DNA from: an uncultured Chloroflexia bacterium
Lineage (GTDB): Bacteria > Chloroflexota > Anaerolineae > CG2-30-64-16
DNA: 64,000 bases
Reading direction: 5' to 3'
Assembly: GCA_963774265.1 (NCBI GenBank)
Contig: CAVZDU010000001.1
Coordinates: 640,001 to 704,000 of the forward strand
Shown: in pieces, positions 7,160 through 55,381 of the stretch
Numbering within the stretch: position 1 is the first letter of the stretch
Layout of the letters: each line of letters starts with the position of its first letter
The notes under the pieces: generated by a model
What the model was told of the DNA's origin: nothing
Seen by the model: only the letters and a program-made list of their open reading frames with translations
Databases searched by the model: none
Program-made: the position numbers and the translations under genes

Positions 7160-9179
<2,020 letters not shown>

Positions 9180-9422: not shown

Positions 9423-9773
9423 ATGGATACATATCACAACCAGGCCAAATTGCTGAAGCTGCTGGCGCATCCCATGCGCCTGCAAATTCTTAGACAGGTG
9501 CGCCGCTCGGACGAGTGCGTCTGTCACCTGTCAGCCGTCCTCGACAAGCCCCAACCCTACGTTTCCCAACAGCTCGCCATCCTGCGCGAAGCCGGTCTGA
9601 TCGTCGACCACAGAGACGGCACCAACGTTTTCTACGGGCTGGACGGCGGGAGCTGCGCGCAAATGCTTAACGAAGTCCTCAGCGCACTGTTCGTCGATGA
9701 TGGGACTGACCTGTCACCCGTACACGAGCGGGTCGCGGGCTGCTGTTGTCCCAAGTGCCTCGCTGAGTCTTGA
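9423..9773 (+). CDS. arsR: ArsR/SmtB family repressor
   Basis: LAHPMRLQIL, ECVCHL and VSQQLAILREAGL motifs; C-terminal CCCPKC. Confidence 0.9.
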   Translation: MDTYHNQAKLLKLLAHPMRLQILRQVRRSDECVCHLSAVLDKPQPYVSQQLAILREAGLIVDHRDGTNVFYGLDGGSCAQMLNEVLSALFVDDGTDLSPVHERVAGCCCPKCLAES

Positions 9774-9836: not shown

Positions 9837-10097
9837 ATGGCCCTGCACATCAAAATCCTCGGTGGCGGCTGCGCCAACTGCGACCGGCTCGCGCAGAACA
9901 CCAAACAGGCCGTCGCCCAACTGGGCGTTGAGGCCACCTTCGAGAAGAGCGGCGACTACGCGGAATACGAGCGCTACGGACTGCTCGCTACGCCCGGGCT
10001 CGTCGCGAACGACCGGCTTCTCAGTGGCGGCCGCGTGCCCTCGCCGGCGCAAATCGTCACGCTCCTGGCCAACGTCCTAGCCGCTGAAACGGAATAG
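9837..10097 (+). CDS. Small thioredoxin-family redox-active disulfide protein (MTH895-like)
   Basis: IKILGGGCANC and TPGLV motifs; AAGGAG RBS. Confidence 0.88.
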   Translation: MALHIKILGGGCANCDRLAQNTKQAVAQLGVEATFEKSGDYAEYERYGLLATPGLVANDRLLSGGRVPSPAQIVTLLANVLAAETE

Positions 10098-10133: not shown

Positions 10134-11282
10134 ATGTCGCACTCCGCTGAAGCCACCATTGCCCCTGTCGCACCAAAACGACTCTCGACGCTGGATCGTT
10201 TCCTGACCCTGTGGATTTTCCTCGCAATGGCCGTCGGCGTCGCCATCGGCTACCTGATTCCCGGCGTGGAAGCCTTCATCAATCGCTTCCAGGTCGGCTC
10301 CACCAACATCCCGATCGCCATCGGTCTGATCCTGATGATGTACCCGCCCTTCGCCAAGGTGAAGTATGAGCGGCTGCCCGAGGTCTTTCGCAACGTCAAG
10401 GTGCTGGGCATCTCGCTGCTGCAGAACTGGATCATCGGCCCGATCCTTATGTTCGTGTTGGCCATTGTTTTCCTGCGCAACTTCCCTGAATACATGATCG
10501 GCCTCATCCTGATCGGCCTGGCCCGCTGCATCGCGATGGTCATCGTCTGGAATGAGCTGGCCAAGGGTGACACCGAATACGCGGCCGGGCTCGTGGCGTT
10601 CAACAGCGTGTTCCAGGTGCTCTTCTACAGCGTCTATGCGTACATCTTTATCACCGTGCTGCCGCAAGCGCTCGGCCTGGAGAGCGCAGTGGTCAAGATC
10701 AGCATCGGCGAACTGGCCAAGACCGTCTTTATCTACCTGGGAATCCCCATGATCGCCGGTTTCGCCTCGCGCTTCTTCCTGCTGCGCGTGAAGGGACGGG
10801 AATGGTACGAGAAGAAGTTCATTCCGCGCATCAGCCCACTCACGCTGATCGCCCTGCTGTTCACGATCCTGGTGATGTTCAGCCTGAAGGGCAATCTGAT
10901 CGTGCAGCTCCCGTTGGATGTGGTGCGTATCGCGATCCCGTTGGTGATCTACTTCGTGATCATGTTCCTGGTCAGCTTCTGGATCGGCCACCGTGCGGGC
11001 GCGGACTACCGCATGACCACCACCATGGCCTTCACAGCGGCCAGCAACAACTTTGAACTTGCGATTGCTGTGGCAGTCGCCGTATTCGGCATCGGATCGG
11101 GCGTGGCGTTCGCTGCGGTCATCGGTCCGCTGATCGAGGTGCCGGTGATGATCGGGCTGGTCAACGTCGCGTTCGCGCTCCAGCGGCGGTGGTTCAAGCA
11201 TGAGCTGGTCACTGCACCCACGGGTCTGGTCGCTGCGGCTGAAGAGGCCTGCCTGCCACCGGTCAAGGCTAAGGGCTCTTGA
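10134..11282 (+). CDS. acr3: Arsenite efflux transporter Acr3
   Basis: [37 protein letters not shown] and GPLIEVP motifs. Confidence 0.96.
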
Positions 11283-11340: not shown

Positions 11341-11621
11341 ATGCCGAGCACCGTGGGCCTGGGCCAGGCCATCCGAGAGGCGGCAGCCGGCCAGTATGTC
11401 ACTGCCCCCTGGCGCTGGACTTCGCGTCGGTGAGCAACGTGGCGCCCCACACACCCGACATGGCCGCCGAGATGCTGTGGGGCGGTGCGGCCTGGGCAGC
11501 CAGCTTCCCGGATCGTGCTGTGTCCTTGATCGGGTTCGCTGACGGATGGAAATCGAGTACGCTCGCCGTGGCGGAGCTCCCGAGGCTTCAATCCCGACCT
11601 GCGAGGAGTGCATCATGCTGA
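11341..11621 (+). CDS. Possible small hypothetical protein (needs one frameshift)
   Basis: GAGG then ATG 11341 reads MPSTVGLGQAIREAAAGQYVTAP and joins the frame LALDFASVSNV...; no recognisable motif. Confidence 0.3.
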
Positions 11622-12160
11622 TTGAGCACTATGATGTGGAAATCTTCACGCCGCCCTGCGAGCCGGGCGCAGAACGTTTCTCAGCGCGCGCCCGATTGCT
11701 GATCGACATCTCGGAGGCGCTACCCTATCTCAATGCCACGTTGCGTGGGGCAGTGTACACCCAAGCGGCCGCCGCGCTGACCTGGAAGAAGGGCGGCCAC
11801 AACATCGCCTTCCACGCCTACGAGATCGCCACCAGCAACGTGGAAGACCGCGACGCGGCCATCGCCGAGCTCGAGGGCCTGGTGGACCTGGTCAATCGCA
11901 CGTGGGAGCGCCGCGCCGAGATCACGCCCGACCACGCCCTGCACCAGAGACCCACGGCTATGGCACTGTACAAGCTGCTGCCGGGCACCAATTGCCGGCT
12001 ATGCGGCCAGCCCTCTTGCTGGAACTTTGGCCTGAAGTTAGCCGCGGCTCAGGTCGAGCTGGCCACGTGCCCGCCGCTGGGTGAGCCGGCCTACGCCGAA
12101 CGGCTGGCCGCGTTGGTGGCGCTGCTCGTGCCAATGCCGGCCATCGGGCCCCGGGACTAA
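11615..12160 (+). CDS. (Fe-S)-binding protein with a C-terminal putative 4Fe-4S domain (PF04060-like), copy 1
   Basis: LPGTNCRLCGQPSCWNF...CPPL; N-terminal PPCEPG. Confidence 0.85.
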   Translation: MLIEHYDVEIFTPPCEPGAERFSARARLLIDISEALPYLNATLRGAVYTQAAAALTWKKGGHNIAFHAYEIATSNVEDRDAAIAELEGLVDLVNRTWERRAEITPDHALHQRPTAMALYKLLPGTNCRLCGQPSCWNFGLKLAAAQVELATCPPLGEPAYAERLAALVALLVPMPAIGPRD

Positions 12161-12200
12161 CATCACAGGTCGAGAAAGGCTCACGACAGAGGTAAGCATC

Positions 12201-13137
12201 ATGCCAGCACATGAAGACAGCACCATTGGTCGGCGTTTTCTCATCTCTATCGGCGTCACCATCGCCATTCTCATCGTCGAAATCATCGGCGGCTACTGGA
12301 CGGGCAGCCTGGCGTTGCTCTCAGATGCGGCCCACGTCTTCATGGACGTCTTCGCGCTGGTTCTGAGCTACCTCGCACTACGGCTCTCCGCGTTGCCCGC
12401 CGACGACCGCCACACCTACGGCTTCCACCGCCTGGAAGTGCTTGGCCGCGCTCGTCAACGGTATCACACTCGGTGCGATCGCCATCGGCATCTTCTCCGA
12501 ATCCTGGCAGCGCTGGCAAAACCCGCAGCCGGTAAAAAGCCTTGAGATGCTGGTCATCGCCGCCATCGGCCTGATCTGCAATCTGATCGTGATCTTCGTA
12601 CTCGGCGGCCACGGCCACCATCGCGAGGCGCACGACCATGAACACGAGCGCGAGGATCTGAACGTCCGCAGCGCGTTCCTGCATGTTGTCGGCGACGCGG
12701 TCTCTTCGGTGGGCGTCATCTTGGCAGCAGGCATCATCTGGACCACCGGCTGGCAATGGGTTGACCCCCTGGTCAGCGTGCTCATCGGGGTTCTGATCCT
12801 GATCAGTTCCTGGCGCGTGCTCAGAGGCTCCCTGCACATCCTGGTTGAGGGGGTCCCCGAAGGGCTGTCACTGGCGAAAATCAGCCAAAGCATGGCCGAG
12901 GCGCCCGGCGTGCAGGACGTGCACGATCTGCACGTCTGGAATCTGTGCTCAGGGCATATTGCCCTGAGCGCCCACGTCGTCGTAAGTGATCAAAGCCTGG
13001 GCCAGGCGCAGACCTTGCTGGACGATCTCATAAGCCACCTGAAGGCCGGCTTTGGCATTGAGCACACCACCATCCAGTTCGAATGCGCCAGTTGCGGGCA
13101 TGGTCGCATGGTCTGCGGCAACGGCAATCATTCGTAA
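12201..13137 (+). CDS. czcD: Cation diffusion facilitator, CzcD/ZitB-like (frameshift near 12442)
   Basis: SLALLSDAAHVFMD, HTYGFHRLE, His-rich loop, SAFLHVVGD, HDLHVW and HTTIQFE motifs. Confidence 0.9.
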
Positions 13138-13199: not shown

Positions 13200-13651
13200 G
13201 TGAGCAGCGAATTTCTTGAAACCACAGTTGATAAATTCATCTTCCGCGTGAAGGTCGGCTACCTCTACAGCGAGGCCGGCGTCTGGGTAGCCTATGAGTC
13301 GGCGCAGGGCACGGCCCGCGTCGGCCTAACCGACTTTCGCCAGCAGGCCAGCGGCGATGTCGCGTTCGTGGAGCTGCCCGCAGTCGGCGCCCAAGCTGGA
13401 GGCCGGCGACGATCTGGCCAACATCGAGACCATCAAGGTCGACCTGGCCGTGCCTGCGCCGCTCAGCGGCGAGGTTGTGGCCGTCAACGAGGCGTTGGGC
13501 GACGCACCGCGAGCTGATCAACCAGGAGCCGTACGGCGCGGGCTGGTTGGTCGAGCTGAAGCCGGAACACTGGCCGGTCGAGGGCTTGCTGGATGCGCCC
13601 GCGTACCTGGCCGTGATGCAGGCGCAAGCCGAAGCGGAGGCGGCCAAATGA
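13200..13651 (+). CDS. GcvH-like lipoyl-carrier protein (frameshifts near 13390 and 13510)
   Basis: Reconstructed ARVGLTDFRQQASGDVAFVELP...IETIKVDLAVPAPLSGEVVAVN...ELINQEPYGAGWLVEL; lipoyl Lys present in ETIK. Confidence 0.88.
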
Positions 13652-14063
13652 GCGAGCGCGTGATCATTGTGCCGTGCAGCGGCATCGGCAAGACGTATGG
13701 CACGGTGACGCGCGAGGCGGCCTATCTGGTGACCGAGGAGCTGCGGCCAGAGACAACCACCATCGTGCCGCTCTCGCTGCTGGTGCTGGGCGACGAAGAG
13801 GCGCGGGCGGCCGTGCAGGACGCCCGGGTGATCACCATGGATGGCTGCAAGCTGGCCTGCGCCACGCTCAACGTGCGCCAGGCGGGCGGCGACGGTAGCC
13901 AAGGAGTTCACCGTGCTGGACTTCTTCCGGCGCAACAAAGCCCTGAAGCCCCAGGGCATCAGCCGAGCTGAACGACGGCGGCCAAGCCCTGGCCCGCGCG
14001 CTGGCGGACGAAGTCGCCCAAACAGCCGATGAATTGATCGCGGGAGGCGTTGAACATGCCTAA
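13648..14063 (+). CDS. DGC-domain putative zinc-binding protein 1 (frameshifts near 13890 and 13960)
   Basis: IIVPCSGIGK and ITMDGCKLACA; ATGA overlap with the GcvH-like gene. Confidence 0.82.
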
Positions 14064-14802
14064 TCTACCGCAACGCAAAGTCGGCATCGTGGCCTGCTCG
14101 GGCGAGGAGTTGCCGGCGGGCACCGTCACCCGCCTGGCCGCGCTCAAGGTGCTGGAGGAGCTGCGGCCCAGCGAGACCGTCACCATCTGCCTGCCGCTCT
14201 TCCTGGCCGGCGGCGAAGGGGATCGCGCCTTCGCCAAGTTCTACCCCACCATCGCCGTGGACGGCTGCGAGAAGCGCTGCGCGGCGCGCGCCACCGAGCT
14301 GTACAGCAACAAGCCGGCGGCCAGCATCGTGGTGGACGACATCCTGGCGCAGCACAACCTGCCGGCGCCACAGGGGCTGCGCCGGCTGTCGCCGGAGAGC
14401 CAGCCCGTCGTGGACGCCCTGGCCGACGCGATCGCCGCCGAAGTCGATCATCTGATGGCCGTGCGCTGGAGCCGGACCGAGGGCGCGATCCTGGAGGCGG
14501 CGCCCGCGGCCCAGGAAGCTGTCAGCACCTCGGCCTGCGCCTGCGGCTCGGGCATCCCGGTGACCACTGTGCAAGTGGCCGGCCGCGCGGTGCAAATCAT
14601 GGCCCTGGAGCCGATCCTGGAGCTGGCCTACAACCAGGGCTTGCGCGCCGATGGCGCCCTGCCCAGCCGGTACCGCCAGATCCTGCAGACCGTGCAGGTC
14701 TACAACACCGTGCCGGCCGGCGAGGAAGACCAGTACGCGCAGGCGCTTGATCTGGCCTGGCACGCCTACTGCGAGCAGCGCGAGGCGCAGAATCATGGCT
14801 AA
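14056..14802 (+). CDS. DGC-domain putative zinc-binding protein 2 with an extra C-terminal CxC domain
   Basis: IVACSGEE, TICLP and VDGCEKRCA, then SACACGSGIP and a helical domain. Confidence 0.85.
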   Translation: MPNLPQRKVGIVACSGEELPAGTVTRLAALKVLEELRPSETVTICLPLFLAGGEGDRAFAKFYPTIAVDGCEKRCAARATELYSNKPAASIVVDDILAQHNLPAPQGLRRLSPESQPVVDALADAIAAEVDHLMAVRWSRTEGAILEAAPAAQEAVSTSACACGSGIPVTTVQVAGRAVQIMALEPILELAYNQGLRADGALPSRYRQILQTVQVYNTVPAGEEDQYAQALDLAWHAYCEQREAQNHG

Positions 14803-15254
14803 GACCGCAACCTACACCACCGAAGTCACCTGGCGCGGGCGATCACTGGGGCCATATCGTGATGGGCAACGGCCCGCAGATGGCCTTTTCCGCGCCGCCC
14901 GACGCCTACGGCCAGGCCGGCGTGTTGACCCCCGAGGATGCCTTCGTCGCGGCGGCCAACACCTGCGTCATGATGATGTTCCTCTGGGCCTGCGAGCGGT
15001 TCAAGATCGACCTGGTGGACTACCGCTGCCGCACCGAGGGCACCAAGAAGATCGAGCTGGATCGCACCGAGATCTTCACCCACCTGCGTTTCTGGCCCGA
15101 GATCACCGTGCGGGCCGATGCCGACGGGGACGCGGCCAGCACCGAGAAGCGCGTGCGCAAGGCGCTGGCCTCGGCGCAGAAGTACAGCCTGGTGGCCAAC
15201 TCGGTCAAGAGCGAGATCAGCATCGAACCACAGATCACGGTGCAGGAAAAGTAG
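14795..15254 (+). CDS. OsmC/Ohr-family protein (frameshift near the 5' end)
   Basis: YTTEVTW, FSAPP, TPEDAFVAAANTC and AQKYSLVANSVKSEI. Confidence 0.8.
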
Positions 15255-15258
15255 TATC

Positions 15259-15405
15259 ATGTTGAGCATCAAAGTATTGGGGCCCGGTTGCGCGAACTGT
15301 TTCATTATGGAAGGCCTCGCGACGGCTGCCGTGCAAGTCCTGACAGACCAGCTTGAGCAATTCGCTCTGGGAGGAAGACCGTGTCCAAGGTATCAGTGGT
15401 GCTAG
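15259..15405 (+). pseudogene. Truncated second MTH895-like thioredoxin
   Basis: MLSIKVLGPGCANC matches the 9837 gene but the TP-motif C-terminal half is absent. Confidence 0.6.
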
Positions 15406-15554
15406 ATGACCAGGAACAGCAGGAGCTGCAGATGATCCTGACCGATGGGGATGGTGTGGCTGCGCTCCGCTACCTGAAGGAAGTGCTCTGGACCCAGGTG
15501 CAAGCGGTGCGCCGCAAAGAGTTGCGCAGCCACCTGGAAGCAGGCCGGTCGTAG
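15381..15554 (+). CDS. Small 57-aa hypothetical protein (absent from the ORF track)
   Basis: GGAGG then GTG; reads VSKVSVVLDDQEQQELQMILTDGDGVAALRYLKEVLWTQVQAVRRKELRSHLEAGRS with good codon usage. Confidence 0.7.
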   Translation: MSKVSVVLDDQEQQELQMILTDGDGVAALRYLKEVLWTQVQAVRRKELRSHLEAGRS

Positions 15555-15689
15555 GAACGGGACGCTTCGTGATTCAATTTGCCGAGTCTATCCGCAAGAA
15601 TCACCGGACGATCATTATCGTCGTCGTAAGCACCCCAGGCAGATGACGTAGCTTCTACACCGCTGACCTGTGCATGGACTGCGAGGAAA

Positions 15690-16369
15690 ATGGCCACAAC
15701 TGAGGGCAGCTTGACCTTCAGGATCGATGAGGCAGGACGGCTGGAGTTCCCCACCTGCGGGGGCTGCCTGCGGGCACGAGGGGTTTTCCGATGTCCCTGA
15801 CCACCGAGCATCTTGTGGGTGCGATCAGCTTGATTCGCTCCCTGCCTTGCCTGGCCGATCCCGGTAAGATCATCGTCATCGGCGAAACTGACGCGCCTCT
15901 GGACGGTGTGCTGCCGCTCCTGAACGCGATCCTGCCCAACGTCGTCAGCTACCATCCGTTCAGCGGCGTGATGACCCTGCGCCGGCGGCCCGGGCTAATC
16001 ACGCTCTACCCGGACAAGGTGATGATCACGCAGGTGGCGGACGTCGAAGAGGGACTGGCCCTGCTGGCGGCCGTGCGCGATCTGCTCAACCGTACCTGGG
16101 CCCGTCGGGATGAGATCCAACCCAGGCCGCAAGGACGCCGTGTGCCGCGACCGCTGGACGTTTATGAGCTGCTGCCGCGCACCAATTGCCGGGCGTGCGG
16201 CGAGGCGACCTGCATGGCCTTCGCGTTCGGCCTGCTGGAGGGCCGCCATCAGCCGGAGGAGTGCCCATCCTTGGCCGATCCGGCCTACATCGCGCAGCGC
16301 CGGGCGCTGGCCGATATGCTGTCCGATGCGGGGGACAGCGCAGCCGGGCCAAACCTAAACGCGCTGTGA
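15690..16369 (+). CDS. (Fe-S)-binding protein, copy 2; probably starts at 15690 with a Cys-containing N-extension (frameshifted), core ORF 15791-16369
   Basis: LPCLADPGK and LPRTNCRACGEATCMAFAF...CPSL; upstream GAGG plus ATG reads MATTEGSLTFRIDEAGRLEFPTCGGC. Confidence 0.8.
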
Positions 16370-16540
16370 AAACGAGCCGTGCCAACGTGTCGGGCAGGAC
16401 TACAAGGAAATCACTCGACCCTCGCTCACGAACGCGCAGGCAGAGATTGCGCAAGGCGCTCGAATGCAGCGGACAGGCACACAATGTGCTCCCGCTACTG
16501 TCTTCCGAGGGTCCGCTTCGCCAGGAAAGGAGCCAGCACG

Positions 16541-17484: not shown

Positions 17485-17915
17485 ATGGCTAAGAAGCGCG
17501 TGCTGTTTTTATGCACCGGCAATTCCTGCTCGTTCCCAGATGGCTGAGGCCATCGTCAATGTCCGGCTGGGCGAATCATGGGAAGCCTATAGTGCGGGCA
17601 CCCAGCCGGCCGGGTATGTTCACCCGCTGGCCGTGCGCGTCTTGCGTGAGATCGGTATTCGAGCATGAAGGACGCTCCAAGCGTGCGGACGAATTCCGGG
17701 ACATGCCGTTCGATCTGGTCGTGACCGTCTGCGACGATGCCGCCGAGAACTGCCCGGTGTGGCTGGGAAGGGGGCGGCGGGTGCACCTCGGCTTTCCTGA
17801 TCCCGCAAAGGCGACGGGGAGTGAGGAAGAGGTGCTGGTCGTCTTCCGCCAGGTGCGCGACGATATTGCGGTGCGGATGAACGAGCTGCTTTCGCGTGAG
17901 AATCTGGGGACTTGA
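17485..17915 (+). CDS. arsC: Thioredoxin-coupled arsenate reductase, LMW-PTP fold (two frameshifts)
   Basis: AAGGAGG RBS; [11 protein letters not shown](R)[22 protein letters not shown] and FPDP motifs. Confidence 0.9.
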
Positions 17916-17951
17916 CAAATCACGACTTATATCGTATATATACGATATAAG
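17912..17951 (+). promoter_or_regulatory. Promoter with a perfect 26-bp palindromic operator upstream of the second arsR
   Basis: TTGACA (17912), 17 nt spacer, TATATA; overlapped by CTTATATCGTATATATACGATATAAG (17926-17951). Confidence 0.85.
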
Positions 17952-17952
17952 G

Positions 17953-18366
17953 ATGGTGGTGAGATGGAGGTCATCGCATTGCAGGGACCGGCGGAGCGCA
18001 ACCGACGAAGCGCGCCTGGTGCAGATGCTGAAGGCGCTGGGTAATCCGGTTCGTTTTCGCATCATGCAGACGCTGGCCGAGCGCCAGGTGTGCATCACGC
18101 AGGAGATTGTCGAAACGACGCCGCTCGCACAGTCCACGGTCAGTCAGCATCTAAAGGTGCTGCGCGAGGCCGGGCTGATCGAGGGCGAGTTCGAAGGACC
18201 CGCGACCTGCTACTGCCTGAGCGAGACGGGCGTGCGCTGGCTGAAGGAACAGATCGAGAGCTGGCTGCCCGGATGCTGTCAGCCAGGCTCGCGGTTTGAG
18301 CCGGTTGAGATCGAGCCGGCGCGTGGCGGAGGTGACCAGGACGCCGCACGTGACTGCTGTGACTGA
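17953..18366 (+). CDS. arsR: Second ArsR/SmtB family repressor (start uncertain)
   Basis: LKALGNPVRFRI, QSTVSQHLKVLREAGL and CYC motifs; C-terminal CC pairs. Confidence 0.88.
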   Translation: MVVRWRSSHCRDRRSATDEARLVQMLKALGNPVRFRIMQTLAERQVCITQEIVETTPLAQSTVSQHLKVLREAGLIEGEFEGPATCYCLSETGVRWLKEQIESWLPGCCQPGSRFEPVEIEPARGGGDQDAARDCCD

Positions 18367-18390
18367 GAGGCGTCTCTTTTTTGCGGTTGA

Positions 18391-18410
18391 TCATCGTAAT
18401 TTTACGATGA
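18391..18410 (+). promoter_or_regulatory. Second copy of the ATCGTA-N4-TACGAT operator
   Basis: TCATCGTAATTTTACGATGA, about 30 nt upstream of the methyltransferase start. Confidence 0.75.
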
Positions 18411-18440
18411 AATTCGATTCAGAATCATGGAGAGTGTAGG

Positions 18441-19881
18441 ATGAGCATGACTCAGGCATCGGCCGAGTATTTCGAGCGGGTGGCGGGCGAGTGGGACAGC
18501 CTGCGGACCGGTTATTTTGGGGAGGCCGTGCGCGACGCGGCGATCGCACGGGCGTACCTGCGGCCAGAGATGGTCGTGGCGGACGTCGGTTCGGGCACGG
18601 GGTTCATGGCTGCGGGTCTCGCGCCGCTGGTTGCGAAAGTATATGCGGTCGACGGCTCGGCCGCCATGCTGGAGGTCGGCCGGCAGAATCTGGGCGGCTT
18701 CGGCAACGTCGAGCAACGGCTGGCCGACGGCGCGCGCGTTGCCGTTCGACGACGCGAGTCTCGACGCGGTCTTCGCGAACATGTATCTGCATCACTGCCC
18801 TGACCCCCAGGCGGCCATCGTTGAAATGGTGCGTGTGCTGAAACCCGGCGGCCGGCTGGTGATCACGGACCTGGATCAGCACGAGCATGCCTGGATGCGC
18901 GAGGAGATGGCCGACTCTGGCTAGGCTTCGAGCGCGGCAGCGTGAAGGACTGGCTGCGGGCGGCGGGCCTGGTGAACGTGATCGTCGATCGGCACCGGCG
19001 AGTCCTGCAGCTCGACCTCGCAGAGCGATCCCGCAGCGGACGCGGCGGCCGACATCAGCATCTTCGTGGCGACGGGCAGCCGCCGGGTGAGCGGCGCGAC
19101 GCGACGCCGTGCAGTCCAGCTACGGTGCGCTGGCGGTCAACGGCGGCTGCTGCGGCTCGCGGCTGCGGTCGCAGAGCAGTTGCTGCTCGCCGTCATCGAA
19201 TGCGATGGAGCTGGTCGAGGCCGGACACGGCCGGATGTGGTCCTGTGGGATACGGGATACACTGCCGAGCAGATCGCCCTGGTGCCTGCGGAAGCTGCGA
19301 ACCTGTCTTTGGGCTGCGGGAACCCGACCGCGATGGCTTCACTGCGGCCGGGCGAGACGGTCCTGGACATCGGCAGCGGCGCGGGGATCGACGCCTTCTA
19401 TCGCCGCCCGGCGTGTGGGCGAGCAGGGCCGGGTGATCGGGCTGGACATGACGCCGTCCATGATCGAGCGCGCGCGGCGATCCGCGGAAGCAGCCGGGCT
19501 GACGCAGGTGGACTTCCGGTTGGGACAGGCGGAAGCGATGCCGGTGGAAGACGGTATCGTGGACGTGATCCTGTCGAACTGCGTTATCAACCTGGTGGAG
19601 GACAAGGGCCGGGTCTTCGAAGAAGCCTATCGGGTGTTGAAGCCGGGCGGCCGGTTGAGCATCAGTGACATGGTGACCGCCGGGCCGCTGCCCATGAGCT
19701 TGCGGAGCGATCCACAGATGTGGGCAGGGTGCATCAACGGTGCGCTGCCCGGAGCGCGAGTATCTGGACCTGGTGCGGCAGGCGGGCTTCGTTGACGTTG
19801 TAGGGCAAGCGAAGCTTGAGTGGGGGTGAGCTGGCGGGCGTGGAGGTCTACAGCCTGGCCCTGTCAGCCAGAAAAGCATAA
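18441..19881 (+). CDS. arsM: Two-domain methyltransferase: class I SAM methyltransferase fused to arsenite methyltransferase (multiple frameshifts)
   Basis: N-domain [16 protein letters not shown] and RVLKPGG; C-domain [26 protein letters not shown] and WAGCINGAL. Confidence 0.82.
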
Positions 19882-20042: not shown

Positions 20043-20160
20043 CCGTGATAGAAAGCGCGATGGCATTGCGGCGTCCCCACATGACAGCACCACCTCGCGC
20101 TCTTTCCTCAGTATGCGATCACGAGAGCAGCCCAACACACCACAATGAGGGTTGTGCCAG

Positions 20161-22491
20161 ATGACACAGGCCGAATTCCGCACCGCCAGGATCGTCGTGC
20201 TGATCCTGTATCTGGCGGTCGCAACCGCGTACAGCCTCGTGAACCCGGCCTTTGAGAGCCCGGATGAGCTGCTTCACTTCGACTATGTTGAATCGCTGTT
20301 GCGTACAGGCCACCTGCCGGTTGCGGTCCTTGGAACTGGTCCGCGTGAAGCGATGCTCACCGAACACTTCCAGGCGCCTCTGTATTACGCTGGCGGTGCG
20401 CTCCTCACAGCCTGGCTTCCGCCGGGACGCCCGGCGTCCGAGGTGATCGAGCGCAACCCGTTCTGGGCATGGCGCATCGGTGAGGTCGGCGTTGACAACA
20501 AGAGCCAGTTTCTTCACGGCCCCGAGCAGGACTTCCCCTGGGTTGGCCTCTGGCTGAGGCTGCACTTGCTCCGGTTCCTTTCGATCCTCGTGGGACTGAT
20601 CGCCGTCTGGCAGACAGGCGAATTTGCTCTCCTGCTTTGGCCGCGGCGTTATGAAACTGCACTGCTGGCGACAGGATTCGTTGCTCTCCTGCCGCAGTTC
20701 GTTTACCTGTCCAGCTCCGTCACCAATGATGTCGCGGTTGTGGCTCTCAGCGCTCTCTCCGCGGTGGCGCTCGGACGACTCCTGCGTTCGCTCTCCCGGA
20801 AATCCATCGATGCGCGCGGCGCGCTCTGGTTAGGACTCCTCTTGGGCTGTGGGGTCCTGGCCGAAGTCAGCCTGTTGTCAGCGGGCGCCGTGGCTTTGGG
20901 CATCTTGTTTCTGTATCTGTTCGTCAACAGGCGTTCGACACCCCGCCCATCGTGGAGCAACCTGGGCCTGGCGGGACTGACCGCAGGGGCCATCGCTGTT
21001 CCGTACCTTGTGCGCAACTGGCTGGTCTACGGAGAGGCCACGGGTCTCAGGCGAATGGACGAAATCTGGGGCCGCAGGGAGCCGCCCCTGACGCTGCAGG
21101 AAACGTTGCGGGAGGTGCCCAACATGTGGACCTCCTTCTGGGGTCGCTTTGGTTACGGACAGATACCGGTCCCAAATGCGATCTACCTGGCCTGTCTGAT
21201 CGTGACCGTGATCGCGCTGGTTGGGCTGACCCTGGGCATGGTCGGACAGGCCCGCACGCTCTCGCTCTCTTCAAAATGGCCGCAGGCCATCCCGTGGCGC
21301 GACGGCAGGATCTGGCTGTTTGTTTATGCCGTCCTGCTGGCGATAACATTAATTGTCGCGCTCCTCAGGTACGCCGGGATCAGCCCGACGGGGTCATTTG
21401 GCCGTGAGTCATTCGCGGCCCTGCCGGCTGATGCAGTCCTGCTCGCCGCGGGTTGGACCGAAGTCGTCGCCGCTGCCCGACGGCGGGCTGTTGCACTATC
21501 TGTGTCATTCCTGATGCTCGTATTCAGCCTCTGGACGCTGGTGGCCATCCTGCGGCCCGCCTATGTGCTGCCCACGCGGGCGTTCGCGACTTCGGGCGGG
21601 CCGATCACTCCGCCTTCGGCGCAAGCCGGCTTGCGCCTGGGCGATGTGGCGACCCTGAGCAAGGTCACGCTCCTCAACCCGACCCTTGCGCCGGGTGAAG
21701 ATGCCCTGGTGGAAGTCGAATGGTTGCCGCTGCGAAGGACAGCTACGCCTTTGATCTTTTTCGCGCGCCTGGTGAGCCCGGACAACAAGCTGCTGGGCGA
21801 CAGGGATTCTTATCCCGGCTTGGGCCGGATCAGCACGACCTTCTGGAAACCTGGCGAGGTCTTCACGGATATCTATCGAGTGCCCGTGGACGAGAACGCG
21901 GCGCGCGAGGCTTCACCGGCGCAGGTCCGGGTGTGGGTAGGTCTCTACGATCGGGCGGCAGATACGATCCTGCCGGCTGTGGACTGGCCGTCAGGTAATT
22001 CAGTCGCCGGGATTGTGGCAGAGGGCAGGTTGCCCGCGGATCGAAGGCAGGGGGACAAGGAGCCAAGCCCCGCACCGGCCAGGTTCGGGGATAACCTTGA
22101 ATTGTCCGCCGCGCATTTCCCCGCCACCTTGCAGCCGGGCGCCACCGTGCCGATCACACTGGAATGGACTGTCTTGAACCCACCCCCGTACGACTGCAAG
22201 CTGTTCATCCACCTGGCGCCAATAGATCAGGTCAGGTCAGTGGCGCAGGTCGATGAGCCAATCATGCGAGACCGCTATCCGAGACGTCTGTGGGCCTCAG
22301 GAGAGAAACTCGAGGACACCCATCGGATCGATATCCCGGCAACGCTGGCGCCAGGGACCTACCGGTTCCTGGTCGGGATCTACCGCGAGGAGCCAGGATG
22401 GCCGCGCTTGCCCGTAATGACCGCGGCCGGCCGTGTGCCGGAAGACGCCTACGTGCTGGGCACCGTGCAGGTAGTTGGCGCACCGCGGTGA
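20161..22491 (+). CDS. GT-C fold membrane glycosyltransferase-like protein (DUF2142/PMT-like) with C-terminal beta domains
   Basis: ESPDELLHFDY, QAPLYY, VTND and SFWGRFG motifs; many TM segments. Confidence 0.75.
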   Translation: MTQAEFRTARIVVLILYLAVATAYSLVNPAFESPDELLHFDYVESLLRTGHLPVAVLGTGPREAMLTEHFQAPLYYAGGALLTAWLPPGRPASEVIERNPFWAWRIGEVGVDNKSQFLHGPEQDFPWVGLWLRLHLLRFLSILVGLIAVWQTGEFALLLWPRRYETALLATGFVALLPQFVYLSSSVTNDVAVVALSALSAVALGRLLRSLSRKSIDARGALWLGLLLGCGVLAEVSLLSAGAVALGILFLYLFVNRRSTPRPSWSNLGLAGLTAGAIAVPYLVRNWLVYGEATGLRRMDEIWGRREPPLTLQETLREVPNMWTSFWGRFGYGQIPVPNAIYLACLIVTVIALVGLTLGMVGQARTLSLSSKWPQAIPWRDGRIWLFVYAVLLAITLIVALLRYAGISPTGSFGRESFAALPADAVLLAAGWTEVVAAARRRAVALSVSFLMLVFSLWTLVAILRPAYVLPTRAFATSGGPITPPSAQAGLRLGDVATLSKVTLLNPTLAPGEDALVEVEWLPLRRTATPLIFFARLVSPDNKLLGDRDSYPGLGRISTTFWKPGEVFTDIYRVPVDENAAREASPAQVRVWVGLYDRAADTILPAVDWPSGNSVAGIVAEGRLPADRRQGDKEPSPAPARFGDNLELSAAHFPATLQPGATVPITLEWTVLNPPPYDCKLFIHLAPIDQVRSVAQVDEPIMRDRYPRRLWASGEKLEDTHRIDIPATLAPGTYRFLVGIYREEPGWPRLPVMTAAGRVPEDAYVLGTVQVVGAPR

Positions 22492-50237: not shown

Positions 50238-51268
50238 ATGCCCGCACTGACTGCTCAGCAGTTCGTCACTCGTGACCACGCCGCATCCCTTACCGTCGAG
50301 CAGCTGCTCGACATGTACGAGGTGATGCTGCTCGCGCGCAAGCTCGACGAGCGTATGTGGGTGCTGCACCGCCAGGGGAAGGTCGCCTTTCACATCTCCG
50401 GCATGGGCCAGGAGGCCTGCCAGGTCGGCGCTGCGTTCGCGATGGAGCGCGGCAAGGACTGGCTGCACCCGTATTACCGGGATATGGCCTTTGTCCTGGC
50501 CCTCGGGATGACCGCCGCGCCACCTCATGCTGGCGCTGTTCGGCAAGGCTGAGGACCCCAGCTCCGGCGGCCGCCAGATGCCTTCGCACTTCGGCTACGC
50601 TCCCTCGCCGCATCGTCTCCGGTTCCAGCCCGGTGGCGACCCAGATGCCCCAGGCCGCGGGCATTGCCTTTGCAGCGAAGCTGCGCGGGCTGGATGAGGT
50701 GGTTGTCGTCACCCTGGGCGAGGGCAGCACCAGCCAGGGCGACTTTCACGAGGCGCTCAACTGGGCCGGCATCCACTGCCTGCCGCTCATCACCCTGGTG
50801 GAGAACAACCAGTACGCCATCTCCGTGCCCCTGGAGAAGCAGATGCCCGTACCGAACGTGGCCGACCGCGGCGATGCGTACGGGATGCCGGGCGTGATGT
50901 ACGACGGCAACGACATCTTCGAGAGCTACAACGTCACGCGCGAGGCGGTTCTGCGTGCCCGCCACGGCGAGGGTGCGACCTTGCTCGAGGCGAAGACCTA
51001 TCGCCCCACGCCTCATTCCTCCGATGATGATGACCGCTCTTATCGGAGCCGCGACGAGGTGGAAATGTGGAAGAAGCGAGACCCGATCCTCGGCATGGAG
51101 AAGGTCTTGCGCAGCCGAGGAATCCTGGACGACGCGGAGGCCCAGCGCATCCGTGATCGGGTGGGGGCCAAGGTGGACGATGCAACCGAATACGCCCAAC
51201 GCGCGCCCTATCCTCGCGCCGAAGACGCGCTGCACCCGGTGTTCGGAGCGCTGCTCCATGCCGATTAG
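50238..51268 (+). CDS. bkdA1: 2-oxoacid (likely branched-chain) dehydrogenase E1 alpha (frameshifted)
   Basis: GQEACQVG, PYYRD, GEGSTSQGDFHE, ENNQYAIS and PHSSDDD motifs. Confidence 0.9.
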
Positions 51269-52242
51269 GACCGACATCGAGGCGCTGCGCGAGACAATGG
51301 CCGCAGAGATGCGCCGGGATCCCGCGATCATCATCACCGGCGAGGACGTCGGCCAGCGCGGCGGCGTGTTCCGAGCCACTGAAGGGCTGTACGCCGAGTT
51401 TGGGCCCAGCCGGGTCATCGATAGCCCTCTTTCCGAGCTGTCCATCGTCGGCGTCGGCATCGGCATGGCGCTCAACGGCATCCGGCCTATCTGCGAGATC
51501 CAGTTCGCCGACTTCATCCATCCGGCCTTCAATCAGATCGTCAACGAAGCCGCGAAGATGCGCTATCGCTCCAACGCGACCTTCAGCGTGCCGATGGTCA
51601 TCCGCGCGCCCTATGGCGGCGGCGTCAGCGGCGCGCTTTATCATTCGCAATCGATCGAGGCGTTCTTCTGCCACGTGCCGGGCCTGTACGTCCTTGCGCC
51701 CAGCACGCCGTACGACACCGCCGGCCTCTTGCGCGCCGCACTGCGCAGCCCCGATCCGGTGCTCTTTCTGGAGCACAAGAAGCTGTACCGCTCGATCAAG
51801 GGTGAGGTGCCAGACGGTGAGTTCCTCGTGCCGATCGGCAAGGCCGATGTGAAGCGCGCGGGCGACGACCTGACGATCATCTGCTATGGCTTGATGCTGC
51901 ACGAATCGCTGAAGGCCGCGGAGACCCTGGCTCGTGAGGACATCTCGGTCGAGGTGATCGACCTGCGCACGCTCTCTCCGCTGGACAAGACCGCCATATT
52001 GACCTCGGTCAAGAAGACCGGCAAGGTCCTGATCGTCCATGAGGACAACCTGACCGGCGGCCTGGGTGGGGAGATCGCCGCGATCATCGCGGAGGAGGCC
52101 TTCGAGTATCTGGACGGGCCGATCACGCGTGCTCGCCGGGCCGGATGTTCCGGCCATGCCCTTCAGCCATCCGATGCAGGACTTCTTCATGCCCAACGCC
52201 GAGAAGATCGCCGCGGCCGCACGGTCGCTCGCGGCCTATTAG
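51258..52242 (+). CDS. bkdA2: 2-oxoacid dehydrogenase E1 beta (frameshift near the 3' end)
   Basis: GEDVGQRGGVF, EIQFADF, YHSQS, FLEHK and IDLRTL motifs. Confidence 0.92.
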
Positions 52243-52251
52243 GAGCCCATC

Positions 52252-53874: not shown

Positions 53875-53880
53875 TCGACT

Positions 53881-55297: not shown

Positions 55298-55381
55298 TTC
55301 CTTGCGACGGCCTCTGCCAGATGCTATACTGCGAGGAGATAGGACCGGCTGCGTCAAGCAGCCGGTGTAAATGAGTGAGTC

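What the first reader, a model, noticed from the sequence alone, without database searches (positions are those of the whole stretch)
13200..15254. Candidate undescribed lipoyl-relay module: GcvH-like carrier, two DGC proteins and OsmC inside an arsenic island
Seen: four genes with overlapping stop/start codons. They encode a GcvH-like protein that keeps the lipoyl Lys (ETIK), two different DGC zinc-binding proteins and an OsmC/Ohr-family protein. No gcvP or gcvT is present in the window, and the module lies between arsR-trx-acr3-czcD and arsC-arsR-arsM. Established: arsenite poisons cells by binding dihydrolipoamide dithiols; Ohr/OsmC peroxidases are reduced by lipoylated proteins; stand-alone GcvH-like proteins (GcvH-L, LbpA) act as carriers in other systems. 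Inference: the module is a lipoyl-based arsenite or metal sink, or a thiol-redox relay. The lipoyl arm could capture As(III) or reduce OsmC, the DGC proteins could hand the metal(loid) to Acr3, ArsM or CzcD, and LipA/LpdA (encoded elsewhere in this window) could load and recycle the arm. I know of no characterised system with this gene set.
Basis: partly seen in the sequence, partly recalled or inferred. Interest (0 to 1): 0.85.

Follow-up and report, generated by a model that had tools for sequence, protein, structure and literature searches.

The report
Conserved lipoyl-carrier thiol cassette beside arsenic genes
Four overlapping genes for a spare lipoyl-carrier protein, two cysteine-rich proteins of unknown function and an unusual OsmC-type protein form a widely conserved, undescribed cassette that often sits inside arsenic-resistance operons and probably protects the cell's thiols.

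Summary
Confirmed. Window 13200-15254 holds four genes with overlapping stop/start codons: a GcvH-like lipoyl carrier, two DGC (PF08859) proteins and an atypical OsmC-like protein. Five single-base insertions break three of them. The single-copy gyrB of this window is broken the same way and all relatives are in frame, so I read them as assembly errors.

The cassette is conserved. All four genes occur in 69 of 70 genome loci and 36 of 38 metagenome loci with enough flank. The lipoyl Lys is kept in 74 of 74.

A special ArsR (CVCH plus CxCPxC) usually precedes it and an MTH895/ArsE-type thioredoxin follows. Where a cassette genome has acr3, the two are adjacent in 15 of 23. Yet 42 of 65 cassette genomes show no acr3, and acr3 is no commoner with the cassette (35%) than without (33%). 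Other frequent neighbours are AhpD-like CMD, CcdA/DsbD, TauE and FeS proteins.

Best reading: a lipoyl-thiol redox cassette under a metal(loid)/thiol-stress regulator, often recruited into ars operons. It pairs an H protein with OsmC, as known in Trichomonas, plus DGC partners of unknown role. An As(III) sink or relay remains possible but untested. Ten paper searches found no description of it.

The parts
13200..13651 (+). GcvH-like lipoyl carrier, read in three frames because of two single-base insertions (near 13396 and 13510). The lipoyl Lys codon is at 13435-13437.
   Evidence: Pfam GCV_H in three pieces. Insertions seen against 5 homologues. Ortholog profile against solved GcvH 1onl, E 7.3e-35. 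Lys kept in 74 of 74.
13648..14063 (+). DGC1, a short DGC-domain protein (about 137 aa in relatives), read in three frames because of insertions near 13891 and 13963.
   Evidence: Pfam DGC 44.4 bits. Insertions. Three conserved Cys (C10, C67, C71 of the L005 ortholog) in 99% of 76.
14056..14802 (+). DGC2, intact, 248 aa: an N-terminal DGC domain plus a C-terminal domain of about 100 aa with an invariant CxC.
   Evidence: Pfam DGC 57.2 bits. C14, C45, C71, C75, C161 and C163 conserved (99-100% of 80; 79-80 of 80). AlphaFold2 model pLDDT 89.7.
14795..15254 (+). OsmC-like protein, read in two frames because of one insertion near 14836.
   Evidence: Pfam OsmC 46.3 bits. Insertion. Closest solved relative Ta0195 (2onf), E 1.5e-9. 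C57 and C78 conserved. The usual second Cys is an invariant Ser.
15259..15405 (+). Remnant of the MTH895/ArsE-type thioredoxin-like gene that follows the cassette in relatives. Only 15259-15341 is homologous. About 1.76 kb present in L005 and L006 is missing here.
   Evidence: blastn of window 15200-16400 against L005, L006 and L009. The relatives' gene reaches TIGR00412 at 81.5 bits, cut-off 62.
9423..9773 (+). ArsR/SmtB-family regulator of the cassette-linked subtype (ECVCHL motif and a C-terminal CCCPKC).
   Evidence: NCBIfam HTH_metalloreg 77 bits. The same subtype lies upstream of the cassette in relatives: CVCH in 47 of 50 and CxCPxC in 45 of 50.
9837..10097 (+). Thioredoxin-like protein (Thioredoxin_3, CxxC).
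   Evidence: Pfam PF13192 76.2 bits.
10134..11282 (+). Acr3 arsenite efflux permease, the only copy found in this genome.
   Evidence: Pfam SBF 209 bits. TIGR00832 at 461.8 bits, above its cut-off. tblastn finds a single hit in the genome.
11615..12160 (+). FeS-domain protein 1: an N-terminal part with no family match plus a C-terminal PF04060 domain.
   Evidence: Pfam FeS 31.3 bits. This or its paralogue lies near the cassette in 18 of 42 loci.
12198..13137 (+). CDF/CzcD-type cation efflux gene, read in two frames.
   Evidence: ORFs 12081-12545 and 12442-13137. Pfam Cation_efflux and ZT_dimer.
15791..16369 (+). FeS-domain protein 2, a paralogue of FeS-domain protein 1.
   Evidence: Pfam FeS 47.6 bits. 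34% identical to the first copy.
17511..19795 (+). ArsC-like (broken frame), a second ArsR, and a methyltransferase region that includes the ArsM-like part.
   Evidence: ORFs. NCBIfam ArsR. Pfam methyltransferase domains. Homologues of these pieces lie beside the cassette in L005, L006, L020 and L029.

Best explanation
The four genes are the core of a conserved accessory operon of Anaerolineae-type Chloroflexota: arsR-type regulator, gcvH-like, DGC1, DGC2, osmC-like, MTH895/ArsE-type thioredoxin. I read it as a thiol and lipoyl redox-defence cassette switched on by a thiol-reactive metal(loid) such as As(III).

Proposed steps (only the gene content, conservation and context are shown; every step is inferred):
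1. The regulator, with a CVCH site and a C-terminal CxCPxC site, releases the operon when its cysteines are occupied.
2. The extra GcvH paralogue is lipoylated by the housekeeping enzymes.
3. Its dihydrolipoyl arm reduces the OsmC-like protein. That protein keeps the peroxidatic Cys and the Glu ten residues before it but lacks the usual resolving Cys, so the arm itself would resolve the oxidised Cys. This is peroxide detoxification as in the H protein/L protein/OsmC system of Trichomonas and in lipoyl-dependent Ohr.
4. The two cysteine-rich DGC paralogues, the partners most tightly linked to the carrier, together with the thioredoxin-like protein (and in many relatives AhpD-like CMD and CcdA/DsbD proteins), exchange reducing equivalents with the arm or keep it free of bound metalloid.

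The cassette often sits in ars operons because arsenite attacks exactly such dithiols and provokes peroxide stress. In this window the breaks are sequencing or assembly errors, so the genes are most likely intact in the cell.
For: Conserved unit:
- All four genes occur at constant spacing in 69 of 70 genome loci and 36 of 38 metagenome loci.

Residues:
- Lipoyl Lys kept in 74 of 74 and 62 of 63.
- OsmC-like E47 and C57 invariant and C78 conserved; DGC cysteines conserved; Trx CxxC in 98% of 62.

Extra paralogue:
- The ortholog scores below the NCBIfam GcvH cut-offs (102.3 against 117).
- 5 of 5 cassette genomes have another, higher-scoring GcvH elsewhere.
- The window's genome has its gcvP, gcvT and GcvH on contig C2.

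Regulator:
- An ArsR-family hit lies within 10 kb in 42 of 42 fully flanked loci, and directly upstream in 40 of 64.
- The upstream regulators carry CVCH in 47 of 50 and CxCPxC in 45 of 50.

Redox neighbourhood:
- I scanned 300 same-strand ORFs just downstream of the cassette, in 62 of the 77 loci with at least 6.5 kb of downstream flank (300 of 375 ORFs).
- The commonest families were Thioredoxin_3 53, CMD/AhpD-like 19, SBF/Acr3 18, FeS 16, HTH_5 14, TauE 11, DsbD_TM 6 and LMWPc 6.

Arsenic link:
- Acr3, ArsC or ArsM lie within about 10 kb in 20 of 42 loci and 17 of 25.
- Acr3 is adjacent in 15 of 23 cassette genomes that have one.
- The window's genome has one acr3 in 5.5 Mb.

Precedents:
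- Lipoyl groups reduce Ohr and OsmC (PMC5384416, passages).
- OsmC receives electrons from lipoate via the L and H proteins (PMC7946386, passage).
- Lipoate on E2p powers AhpD (PMC12995895, passages).

Errors, not decay:
- All five breaks are +1 insertions absent from five homologues.
- Single-copy gyrB is split into three frames in the same way.
Against: - No Lpd and, as a rule, no lipoate ligase is encoded with the cassette. LplA-B_cat appeared once in the first tally of 150 downstream ORFs and is not among the 25 families listed for the second 150.
- The OsmC-like protein lacks the canonical resolving Cys. Single-Cys mutants of an Ohr were inactive (PMC5384416).
- OsmC is missing from L070 and from L150 and L151, while GcvH and both DGC genes remain. 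The carrier's obligate partner therefore looks like the DGC pair, whose function is unknown.
- The DGC fold gave no functional lead.
- 22 of 42 fully flanked loci have no ars gene within 10 kb.
- 42 of 65 cassette genomes show no acr3, and acr3 is as common without the cassette (112 of 335) as with it (23 of 65).
- The effector of this ArsR subtype is not known.
- No expression or phenotype data exist.
Confidence: 0.45

Rival explanations
1. One reading: an arsenite sink or relay. The reduced lipoyl arm captures As(III). The DGC proteins (three conserved Cys in DGC1; four plus a CxC in DGC2) take it over and deliver it to Acr3, much as ArsD serves ArsA.
For: - acr3 follows the cassette within about 3 kb in 10 of 42 loci and 14 of 28.
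- acr3 is adjacent in 15 of 23 genomes that have both.
- Three-Cys and CxC sets are invariant. Such sets suit As(III); that is recalled chemistry, not tested here.
- GcvH, DGC1 and DGC2 are the most tightly linked trio: GcvH in 75 of 75 and DGC1 in 76 of 76; 49 of 49 and 61 of 61.
- A DGC gene also sits in an arsR-arsP-arsE operon of P. mercurii (bioRxiv 10.1101/2022.10.17.512643, passage).
Against: - 42 of 65 cassette genomes show no acr3 with TIGR00832, and there is no genome-level enrichment.
- A sink that binds one As per protein is costly.
- It does not explain the OsmC-like protein, or the CMD, CcdA and TauE neighbours.
- No binding data exist.
Confidence: 0.15
2. A thiol, peroxide or reactive-sulfur stress cassette with no special tie to arsenic. 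The ArsR/SmtB-type regulator senses another signal (another metal, disulfide or persulfide stress), and ars genes are merely frequent neighbours in stress islands.
For: - 22 of 42 loci lack ars genes within 10 kb.
- acr3 is equally frequent with and without the cassette.
- The neighbours are mostly general thiol-redox genes: Thioredoxin_3, CMD, DsbD_TM, TauE, PIG-L.
- The second-best NCBIfam hit of the regulator is the sulfite-sensing BigR (E 5.1e-15, below its cut-off).
Against: - When acr3 is present it is next to the cassette in 15 of 23 genomes, far above the roughly 0.4% expected for one gene in a 5.5 Mb genome and a 21 kb span.
- The downstream thioredoxin belongs to the MTH895/ArsE family.
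- ArsC, ArsM and ArsP_1 also recur nearby.
Confidence: 0.22
3. A new thiol-driven reductase for pentavalent arsenic (arsenate or methylarsenate). The DGC pair is the enzyme. The lipoyl carrier and the ArsE-type thioredoxin are its electron donors, and Acr3 exports the product.
For: - Many arsR-cassette-trx-acr3 strings have no ArsC hit within the flanks, for example L035, L056, L066, L071 and L072.
- The DGC domain has a flavodoxin-like three-layer fold with Cys at strand ends.
- A solved arsenate reductase (2l17) is among the matches, but only at Z 6.7, rmsd 3.0 over 101 residues, amid many unrelated folds.
Against: - Profile comparison of DGC1 and the DGC2 N-domain with the loci's LMW-PTP ArsC gives probabilities of 0.7% and 22.6%.
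- ArsC is present beside the cassette in this window and in 16 of 42 loci.
- The OsmC-like partner is unexplained.
Confidence: 0.08
4. The module is dead in this genome: the five frameshifts are real and three of the four genes are pseudogenes.
For: - Five frame breaks in 2055 bases.
- The thioredoxin gene that follows the cassette in relatives is truncated, and about 1.76 kb is missing.
- No run holding this exact strain was found; the best held 17% of the sampled words. The bases therefore could not be checked in reads.
Against: - All five are +1 insertions, the same kind that splits single-copy gyrB into three frames and breaks Lpd, CzcD and ArsC.
- There are no stop codons or deletions inside the restored frames.
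- Genome completeness is only 84% despite just 10 contigs.
- Relatives' contigs lack a base at or near four of the five sites.
Confidence: 0.1

Closest known systems
H protein / L protein / OsmC peroxide detoxification in Trichomonas vaginalis hydrogenosomes (Nyvltova et al. 2016, seen only as cited in PMC7946386 and PMC5384416)
   Same: A glycine-cleavage H protein working without P and T proteins, paired with an OsmC-family protein. The lipoyl arm is the electron donor.
   Different: No L protein (Lpd) is encoded with the cassette. The OsmC-like protein here lacks the usual resolving Cys. Two DGC proteins and a thioredoxin-like protein are added, and the unit is under an ArsR-type regulator and often sits in ars operons.
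Lipoyl-dependent Ohr/OsmC peroxidases of bacteria (PMC5384416, passages)
   Same: OsmC fold, the peroxidatic Cys with a Glu ten residues before it, and lipoylated proteins as reductants.
   Different: Those enzymes use lipoyl groups of the 2-oxoacid dehydrogenases and have two catalytic Cys. Here the carrier is dedicated, and the second Cys is an invariant Ser, with another Cys (C78) conserved instead.
AhpC/AhpD/DlaT/Lpd system of Mycobacterium tuberculosis (PMC12995895, passages)
   Same: Reduced lipoate on a carrier domain powers a thioredoxin-like CxxC protein (AhpD, CMD family) for peroxide defence. CMD-family genes follow the cassette in 19 of the 300 downstream ORFs scanned.
   Different: The lipoyl domain there is part of E2p. 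No AhpC was seen among the listed families, and this window has no CMD gene beside the cassette.
GcvH-L of Staphylococcus aureus (PMC12440151, abstract in the search listing and passages) and LbpA of the sulfur-oxidising sHdr system (recalled; PMC10332631 seen only in the listing)
   Same: Extra GcvH paralogues with the lipoyl Lys, encoded away from gcvP/gcvT in stress or redox operons.
   Different: Their partners (SirTM and macrodomain; sHdr, DsrE and TusA) are absent here, and no DGC or OsmC genes are reported with them. The ortholog scores far below the NCBIfam models for other GcvH-like families: TIGR03077 59.1 against 144, and NF045810 33.3 against 150.
ars operons with accessory redox genes, including arsR5-arsP-arsE-DGC of Pseudodesulfovibrio mercurii ND132 (bioRxiv 10.1101/2022.10.17.512643, passage)
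   Same: ArsR-type regulator, a PF13192/ArsE-type thioredoxin-like protein and a PF08859 DGC protein in one string with an arsenical pump.
   Different: No GcvH-like or OsmC-like gene is mentioned there, and the DGC protein is called of unknown function. The pump is ArsP rather than Acr3.

Membership tests
Glycine cleavage H protein (GcvH; PF01597, TIGR00527) | Sequence family and fold of the lipoyl-bearing H protein | tested here: met
   Pfam GCV_H in all three pieces. The ortholog profile hits solved GcvH 1onl at E 7.3e-35 over 127 residues.
Glycine cleavage H protein (GcvH; PF01597, TIGR00527) | Lipoyl-lysine in the E-[ST]-x-K hairpin | tested here: met
   ETIK in the window. The Lys is kept in 74 of 74 and 62 of 63, and aligns with ESVK of 1onl.
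Glycine cleavage H protein (GcvH; PF01597, TIGR00527) | Score above the curated equivalog cut-off | tested here: not met
   The L005 ortholog scores 102.3 against cut-off 117 (NF002270) and 96.1 against 115.85 (TIGR00527).
Glycine cleavage H protein (GcvH; PF01597, TIGR00527) | Works with the P and T proteins (genomic partnership) | tested here: not met
   gcvT matches lie only on contigs C2 and C10 and gcvP only on C2, where both sit next to a higher-scoring GcvH. 5 of 5 cassette genomes have another GcvH elsewhere.
Glycine cleavage H protein (GcvH; PF01597, TIGR00527) | Lipoylated in the cell | not testable with these tools
   Needs an anti-lipoate blot or mass spectrometry.
OsmC/Ohr thiol peroxidases (PF02566) | OsmC fold or family match | tested here: met
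   Pfam OsmC 46.3 bits, cut-off 27.5. Solved relatives 2onf at E 1.5e-9 and 2d7v at E 1.9e-7.
OsmC/Ohr thiol peroxidases (PF02566) | Peroxidatic Cys with the catalytic Glu upstream | tested here: met
   E47 and C57 are invariant in 36 sequences. C57 aligns with the Cys of Ta0195 and VCA0330. That the spacing of ten equals Glu51/Cys61 of Xylella Ohr is recalled in part; only Glu51 is named in the PMC5962072 abstract.
OsmC/Ohr thiol peroxidases (PF02566) | Resolving Cys in the C-terminal part | tested here: not met
   The position aligned with the Cys of Ta0195 (KYC) and VCA0330 (ENC) is Ser (KYS), invariant in 36 sequences. Another Cys, C78, is conserved in 99% of 74.
OsmC/Ohr thiol peroxidases (PF02566) | Catalytic Arg | not tested
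   No alignment with a characterised Ohr or OsmC was good enough: 6mjn scored E 0.21.
DGC domain proteins (PF08859) | Pfam match above the gathering score | tested here: met
   44.4 and 57.2 bits, cut-off 27. The two are paralogues (hhalign probability 99.8%).
DGC domain proteins (PF08859) | Four conserved cysteines thought to hold zinc (as described in the passage read) | tested here: inconclusive
   DGC2 keeps all four (C14, C45, C71, C75) in 99-100% of 80 sequences. DGC1 keeps three (C10, C67, C71), and the second position is not conserved. Metal content is unknown.
MTH895/ArsE thioredoxin-like proteins (TIGR00412, PF13192) | Score above the cut-off, and a CxxC motif | tested here: met
   The L014 downstream gene scores 81.5 bits, cut-off 62. 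CxxC is kept in 98% of 62. In this window the upstream copy (9837-10097) is whole and the downstream copy is truncated.
Arsenic resistance (ars) operon accessory genes | Same gene string as an ArsR regulator and an arsenite pump | tested here: met
   In this window arsR-trx-acr3-FeS-czcD precedes the cassette on the same strand. In relatives acr3 lies within about 10 kb in 13 of 42 and 15 of 25 loci.
Arsenic resistance (ars) operon accessory genes | Occurs together with arsenic pumps at the genome level | tested here: not met
   Acr3 (TIGR00832, E <= 1e-30) is found in 23 of 65 cassette genomes against 112 of 335 genomes without the cassette in the same class sample. ArsB was not searched.
Arsenic resistance (ars) operon accessory genes | Induced by arsenic, or changes arsenic tolerance | not testable with these tools
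   Needs expression or resistance assays.

The most novel reading that the evidence does not exclude
The dedicated lipoyl carrier and the two DGC proteins form a new kind of arsenic-handling machine. The DGC pair (a family with no known function and no solved relative) would bind As(III) on its three-Cys and CxC sites. Using the lipoyl arm and the ArsE-type thioredoxin, it would either pass arsenite to the pump or reduce pentavalent (organo)arsenicals. The enzyme for the second activity is, as far as I recall, still not identified.
Probability: 0.15. Interest if true: 0.9.

Novelty: new variant of a known kind. Interest (0 to 1): 0.6.

Why it matters
Lipoyl groups are the classic cellular target of arsenite, and lipoylated proteins are known donors for Ohr/OsmC and AhpD peroxide defence.

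Here a spare lipoyl carrier is hard-wired to two proteins of an uncharacterised family, an unusual OsmC and an ArsE-type thioredoxin. The string is under a cysteine-rich ArsR and often sits directly before acr3. It occurs in 65 of 400 sampled genomes of the class and in at least 544 stretches of the species-level genome collection.

Working it out would give the DGC family (PF08859) a function. It would show what dedicated H-protein paralogues do in bacteria. It would also test whether cells protect or exploit lipoyl dithiols under metalloid stress.

If the bold reading holds, it would add a new component to arsenic biochemistry. If not, it is still a common, unannotated antioxidant module of a major wastewater and sediment lineage.

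Tried and rejected
Structure route:
- The profiles of DGC2 and DGC1 found no solved relative.
- The whole-DGC2 model gave no Foldseek match at E <= 0.001. With VIA-align it gave only generic three-layer folds: best 3pu6, Z 8.8, rmsd 2.9, 114 aligned, on residues 7-135.
- The C-terminal domain folded alone (pLDDT 77.8) matched nothing clear. The Foldseek best was TbiB1 at E 0.24. The VIA best was Z 5.4.
- No fold could therefore be assigned. That is not evidence of a new fold.

ESM Atlas: no usable hit for either half of DGC2.

Complex prediction: DGC1 + DGC2 + two OsmC-like chains + the GcvH-like partner. The verdict was 'no answer'. Runs scored 0.53, 0.64 and 0.61. Controls with the partner replaced scored 0.00 and 0.00. 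The control with DGC2 replaced scored 0.66. I count it neither for nor against binding.

Other searches:
- tblastn of DGC2 against the plasmid collection found no match.
- Homology of DGC to LMW-PTP ArsC was rejected (hhalign 0.7% and 22.6%).
- No sequencing run held more than 17% of the words of the stretch, so the five inserted bases could not be checked in reads of the same strain.
- The contigs laid are relatives (85-99% alike). Their presence in two RNA libraries does not show transcription.

Papers: all ten searches found no description of this gene set. Gene tables in supplements of arsenic or Chloroflexota genome papers may mention it.

Slip: the query 'TrxL2' in the script was cut in the wrong frame and is void. 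The thioredoxin counts rest on 'TrxL1' and on the TrxL profile.

Not done:
- ArsB was not searched.
- No test of whether cassette genomes lack ArsC.
- No family tree.
- The adjacency count of 15 of 23 was read by eye from the tables.

Full report
WHAT IS THERE. Window 13200-15254 (+ strand) holds four genes. Pfam finds GCV_H in three consecutive frames (profile positions 3-44, 38-82, 82-120). It finds DGC in 13648-13899 and in 14056-14799, and OsmC in 14859-15251. The stop and start codons overlap: ATGA at 13648; the ATG at 14056 against the TAA at 14061; the ATG at 14795 against the TAA at 14800. The lipoyl Lys of ETIK is encoded at 13435-13437. Upstream on the same strand lie an ArsR, a Thioredoxin_3 protein, Acr3, an FeS-domain protein and a CDF/CzcD. 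Downstream lie a second FeS-domain protein, a CMP-kinase-like gene, ArsC, a second ArsR and methyltransferases. gcvT and gcvP are not in the window. They lie on contigs C2 and C10, next to a higher-scoring GcvH. They close an E1-E1-E2-Lpd-LipA cluster at 50357-56371, about 39 kb from the module.

THE BROKEN FRAMES. I aligned the window to five homologues that are all in frame. The window has exactly five extra single bases, near 13396, 13510, 13891, 13963 and 14836, and each moves the frame by +1. It also has one in-frame 9-base insertion at 14664. The genome's only gyrB (window 7160-9090) is split into three frames in the same way. Lpd, CzcD and ArsC are also split. The assembly has 10 contigs but only 84% completeness. 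Contigs of relatives from four public runs lack a base at or near four of the five sites. I conclude, at about 0.85-0.9, that these are sequencing or assembly errors. No run with this very strain was found, so this is not proven. One difference may be real. After 15341 the window lacks about 1.76 kb that L005 and L006 have, which truncates the thioredoxin-like gene that normally follows the cassette. In L005 the missing stretch also holds a DsbD_TM (CcdA-like) gene. L003, another close relative, additionally has a thioredoxin-domain gene there.

HOW WIDESPREAD.
- The intact DGC2 has more than 5,840 relatives of the same length in the protein collection and 444 representatives at 50% clustering.
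- A scan of one genome per species found 544 confirmed stretches. The best 80 are nearly all labelled Anaerolineae or other Chloroflexota.
- In those 80 loci the four genes stand in the same order and spacing in 69 of the 70 that have enough flank. The exception, L070, lacks OsmC.
- An independent scan of metagenome contigs, started from distant relatives (41-48% identical to its query), gave all four genes in 36 of 38. L150 and L151 lack OsmC.
- The distribution is patchy. DGC2 was found in 65 of 400 other genomes of the class (33 of 273 high-quality genomes) and in 8 of 400 across the phylum, one of these matching only the C-terminal domain. It was not found in the one other genome of the same genus (89% complete). 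That pattern fits an accessory, mobile unit.

WHAT IS CONSERVED IN THE PROTEINS.
- Carrier: the lipoyl Lys is kept in 74 of 74 and 62 of 63. There is a conserved N-terminal extension of about 15 residues. The profile hits solved GcvH at E 7.3e-35. The ortholog still scores below NCBI's GcvH cut-offs. Each of five cassette genomes has another, better GcvH elsewhere.
- DGC1: three conserved Cys.
- DGC2: four Cys in the DGC domain plus an invariant CxC in a C-terminal domain of about 100 residues. That domain also occurs alone as small ORFs. The two DGC domains are paralogues (hhalign probability 99.8%).
- OsmC-like protein: closest to Ta0195 and VCA0330. It keeps E47 and C57. The usual second Cys is an invariant Ser, and another Cys, C78, is conserved.
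- Downstream thioredoxin-like protein: keeps CxxC and belongs to the MTH895/ArsE family.

NEIGHBOURHOOD.
- Regulator: an ArsR-family gene lies within 10 kb in 42 of 42 fully flanked loci. It lies directly upstream in 40 of 64 and in 19 of 26 metagenome loci. These regulators form a subtype with CVCH (47 of 50) and a C-terminal CxCPxC (45 of 50). The window's ArsR at 9423 is of this subtype.
- Thioredoxin: the thioredoxin-like gene follows in 56 of 63 and 25 of 37.
- Unbiased tally: I ran Pfam on 300 same-strand ORFs just downstream, from 62 of the 77 loci with at least 6.5 kb of downstream flank (300 of 375 ORFs). It gave Thioredoxin_3 53, CMD (AhpD-like) 19, SBF/Acr3 18, FeS 16, HTH_5 14, TauE 11, DsbD_TM 6, LMWPc 6, FmdE 6, radical SAM 6, PIG-L 5 and ArsP_1 2. 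LplA-B_cat appeared once in the first tally.
- ars genes: Acr3, ArsC or ArsM lie within about 10 kb in 20 of 42 and 17 of 25 loci.
- Genome level: 23 of the 65 cassette genomes have an Acr3 match. In 15 of these 23 it lies on the same contig within 10 kb of DGC2, mostly within 2 kb (read). Several of the other eight have the cassette at a contig end. The window's genome has a single acr3 in 5.5 Mb, so chance adjacency is about 0.4%.
- Against an arsenic-only role: 42 of 65 cassette genomes show no acr3. Acr3 is as frequent in genomes without the cassette (112 of 335) as with it (23 of 65).

WHAT IT MOST LIKELY DOES. The proteins share one theme: reactive dithiols. These are a lipoyl arm, two Cys-cluster proteins, an OsmC-type Cys protein and a CxxC thioredoxin. 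In relatives there are often also AhpD-like CxxC proteins and CcdA-type thiol transporters. The whole is under a Cys-rich metalloregulator.

Three published systems work this way:
- Lipoyl groups reduce Ohr and OsmC (PMC5384416, passages).
- OsmC of Trichomonas hydrogenosomes receives electrons from lipoate via the L and H proteins of an otherwise incomplete glycine cleavage system (PMC7946386, passage).
- Lipoate on E2p powers AhpD in M. tuberculosis (PMC12995895, passages).

I therefore read the carrier and the OsmC-like protein as a lipoyl-dependent peroxide or thiol-repair pair. I read the DGC pair and the thioredoxin-like protein as the carrier's redox or metalloid-exchange partners, and the whole as a defence switched on by thiol-reactive metal(loid)s. 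This reading explains why the cassette is so often built into arsR...acr3 strings, and why it also thrives without them. Only the gene content, conservation and context are shown. Every mechanistic step is inference (confidence 0.45).

A point against a pure peroxidase reading: GcvH and both DGC genes are never separated (75 of 75, 76 of 76, 49 of 49 and 61 of 61), while OsmC is sometimes lost. The DGC pair is thus the carrier's closest partner.

RIVALS.
It does not fit the many acr3-free genomes or the OsmC, CMD and CcdA partners.
- A stress cassette unrelated to arsenic (0.22) fits the genome-level numbers but not the 15 of 23 adjacency.
- A new reductase for pentavalent arsenicals (0.08) is attractive but has no homology support.
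- Decay of the module in this genome (0.1) is discussed above.

KNOWN OR NEW. Ten full-text searches found no description of the gene set. The only mention of PF08859 is a preprint that lists a DGC gene of unknown function in an arsR-arsP-arsE operon. The H-protein/OsmC pairing and dedicated GcvH paralogues are known kinds. The DGC partners, the altered OsmC, the regulator subtype and the link to acr3 are new. I file it as a new variant of a known kind. If the DGC proteins turn out to handle arsenic, it could be more than that.

LIMITS.
- There are no expression, lipoylation, binding or phenotype data.
- Structure searches gave no functional lead.
- The complex job gave no verdict.
- ArsB was not searched.
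- Related genomes are not independent samples.
- Supplementary files and most subscription journals could not be searched.

Noticed in passing
window 11615-12160 and 15791-16369: Two paralogous proteins (34% identical). Each has an N-terminal part of about 110 residues with no family match, plus a C-terminal PF04060 'putative Fe-S cluster' domain like the start of CdhE and RnfB. One or both lie within 10 kb of the cassette in 18 of 42 genome loci and 8 of 25 metagenome loci. They may be electron donors of the system.
   Followed up: partly
window 15259-15778, against L005:9559-11840: The thioredoxin-like gene after the cassette is cut after about 27 codons, and roughly 1.76 kb present in L005 and L006 is missing. 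In L005 the missing stretch holds the rest of that gene and a DsbD_TM/CcdA-like gene. A 57-aa ORF (15381-15554), also present in L009, sits at the junction.
   Followed up: partly
window 7160-9090: The genome's only gyrB is split into three frames by two +1 shifts. Lpd (53896-55294), CzcD (12198-13137) and ArsC (about 17511-17915) are also split. The assembly carries frequent single-base insertions, which probably depress its completeness score (84%).
   Followed up: yes
G015:C530:17400-17642 and G388:C37:47373-47603: The C-terminal CxC domain of DGC2 also occurs as a stand-alone ORF of about 95-105 aa, once just downstream of a cassette and once in a genome with no other DGC match.
   Followed up: no
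L003:4995-5753 and other loci: CMD (AhpD-like) proteins follow the OsmC-like gene in 19 of the 300 downstream ORFs scanned. In L003 the 253-aa ORF also carries a thioredoxin-like tblastn hit in its first part, which suggests a Trx-CMD fusion.
   Followed up: partly
L010:11648-12541, L031:1970-2803, L010:12754-13509: In some loci PIG-L family deacetylases and TauE-type exporters follow the cassette. As I recall, the PIG-L family includes the mycothiol and bacillithiol deacetylases. This hints at a link to low-molecular-weight thiol metabolism.
   Followed up: no
window 14664-14672: DGC2 of the window has an in-frame 9-base insertion (Ser-Arg-Tyr) absent from five close homologues, in a variable loop of the C-terminal domain.
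   Followed up: no
window 50357-56371: A complete 2-oxoacid dehydrogenase cluster (E1 alpha, E1 beta, E2 with lipoyl domain, Lpd, LipA), followed by a DUF1786 gene.
   Followed up: partly
window 20152-22491: A 779-aa ORF with many hydrophobic stretches and no Pfam match at E <= 0.001, directly after the methyltransferase region.
   Followed up: no
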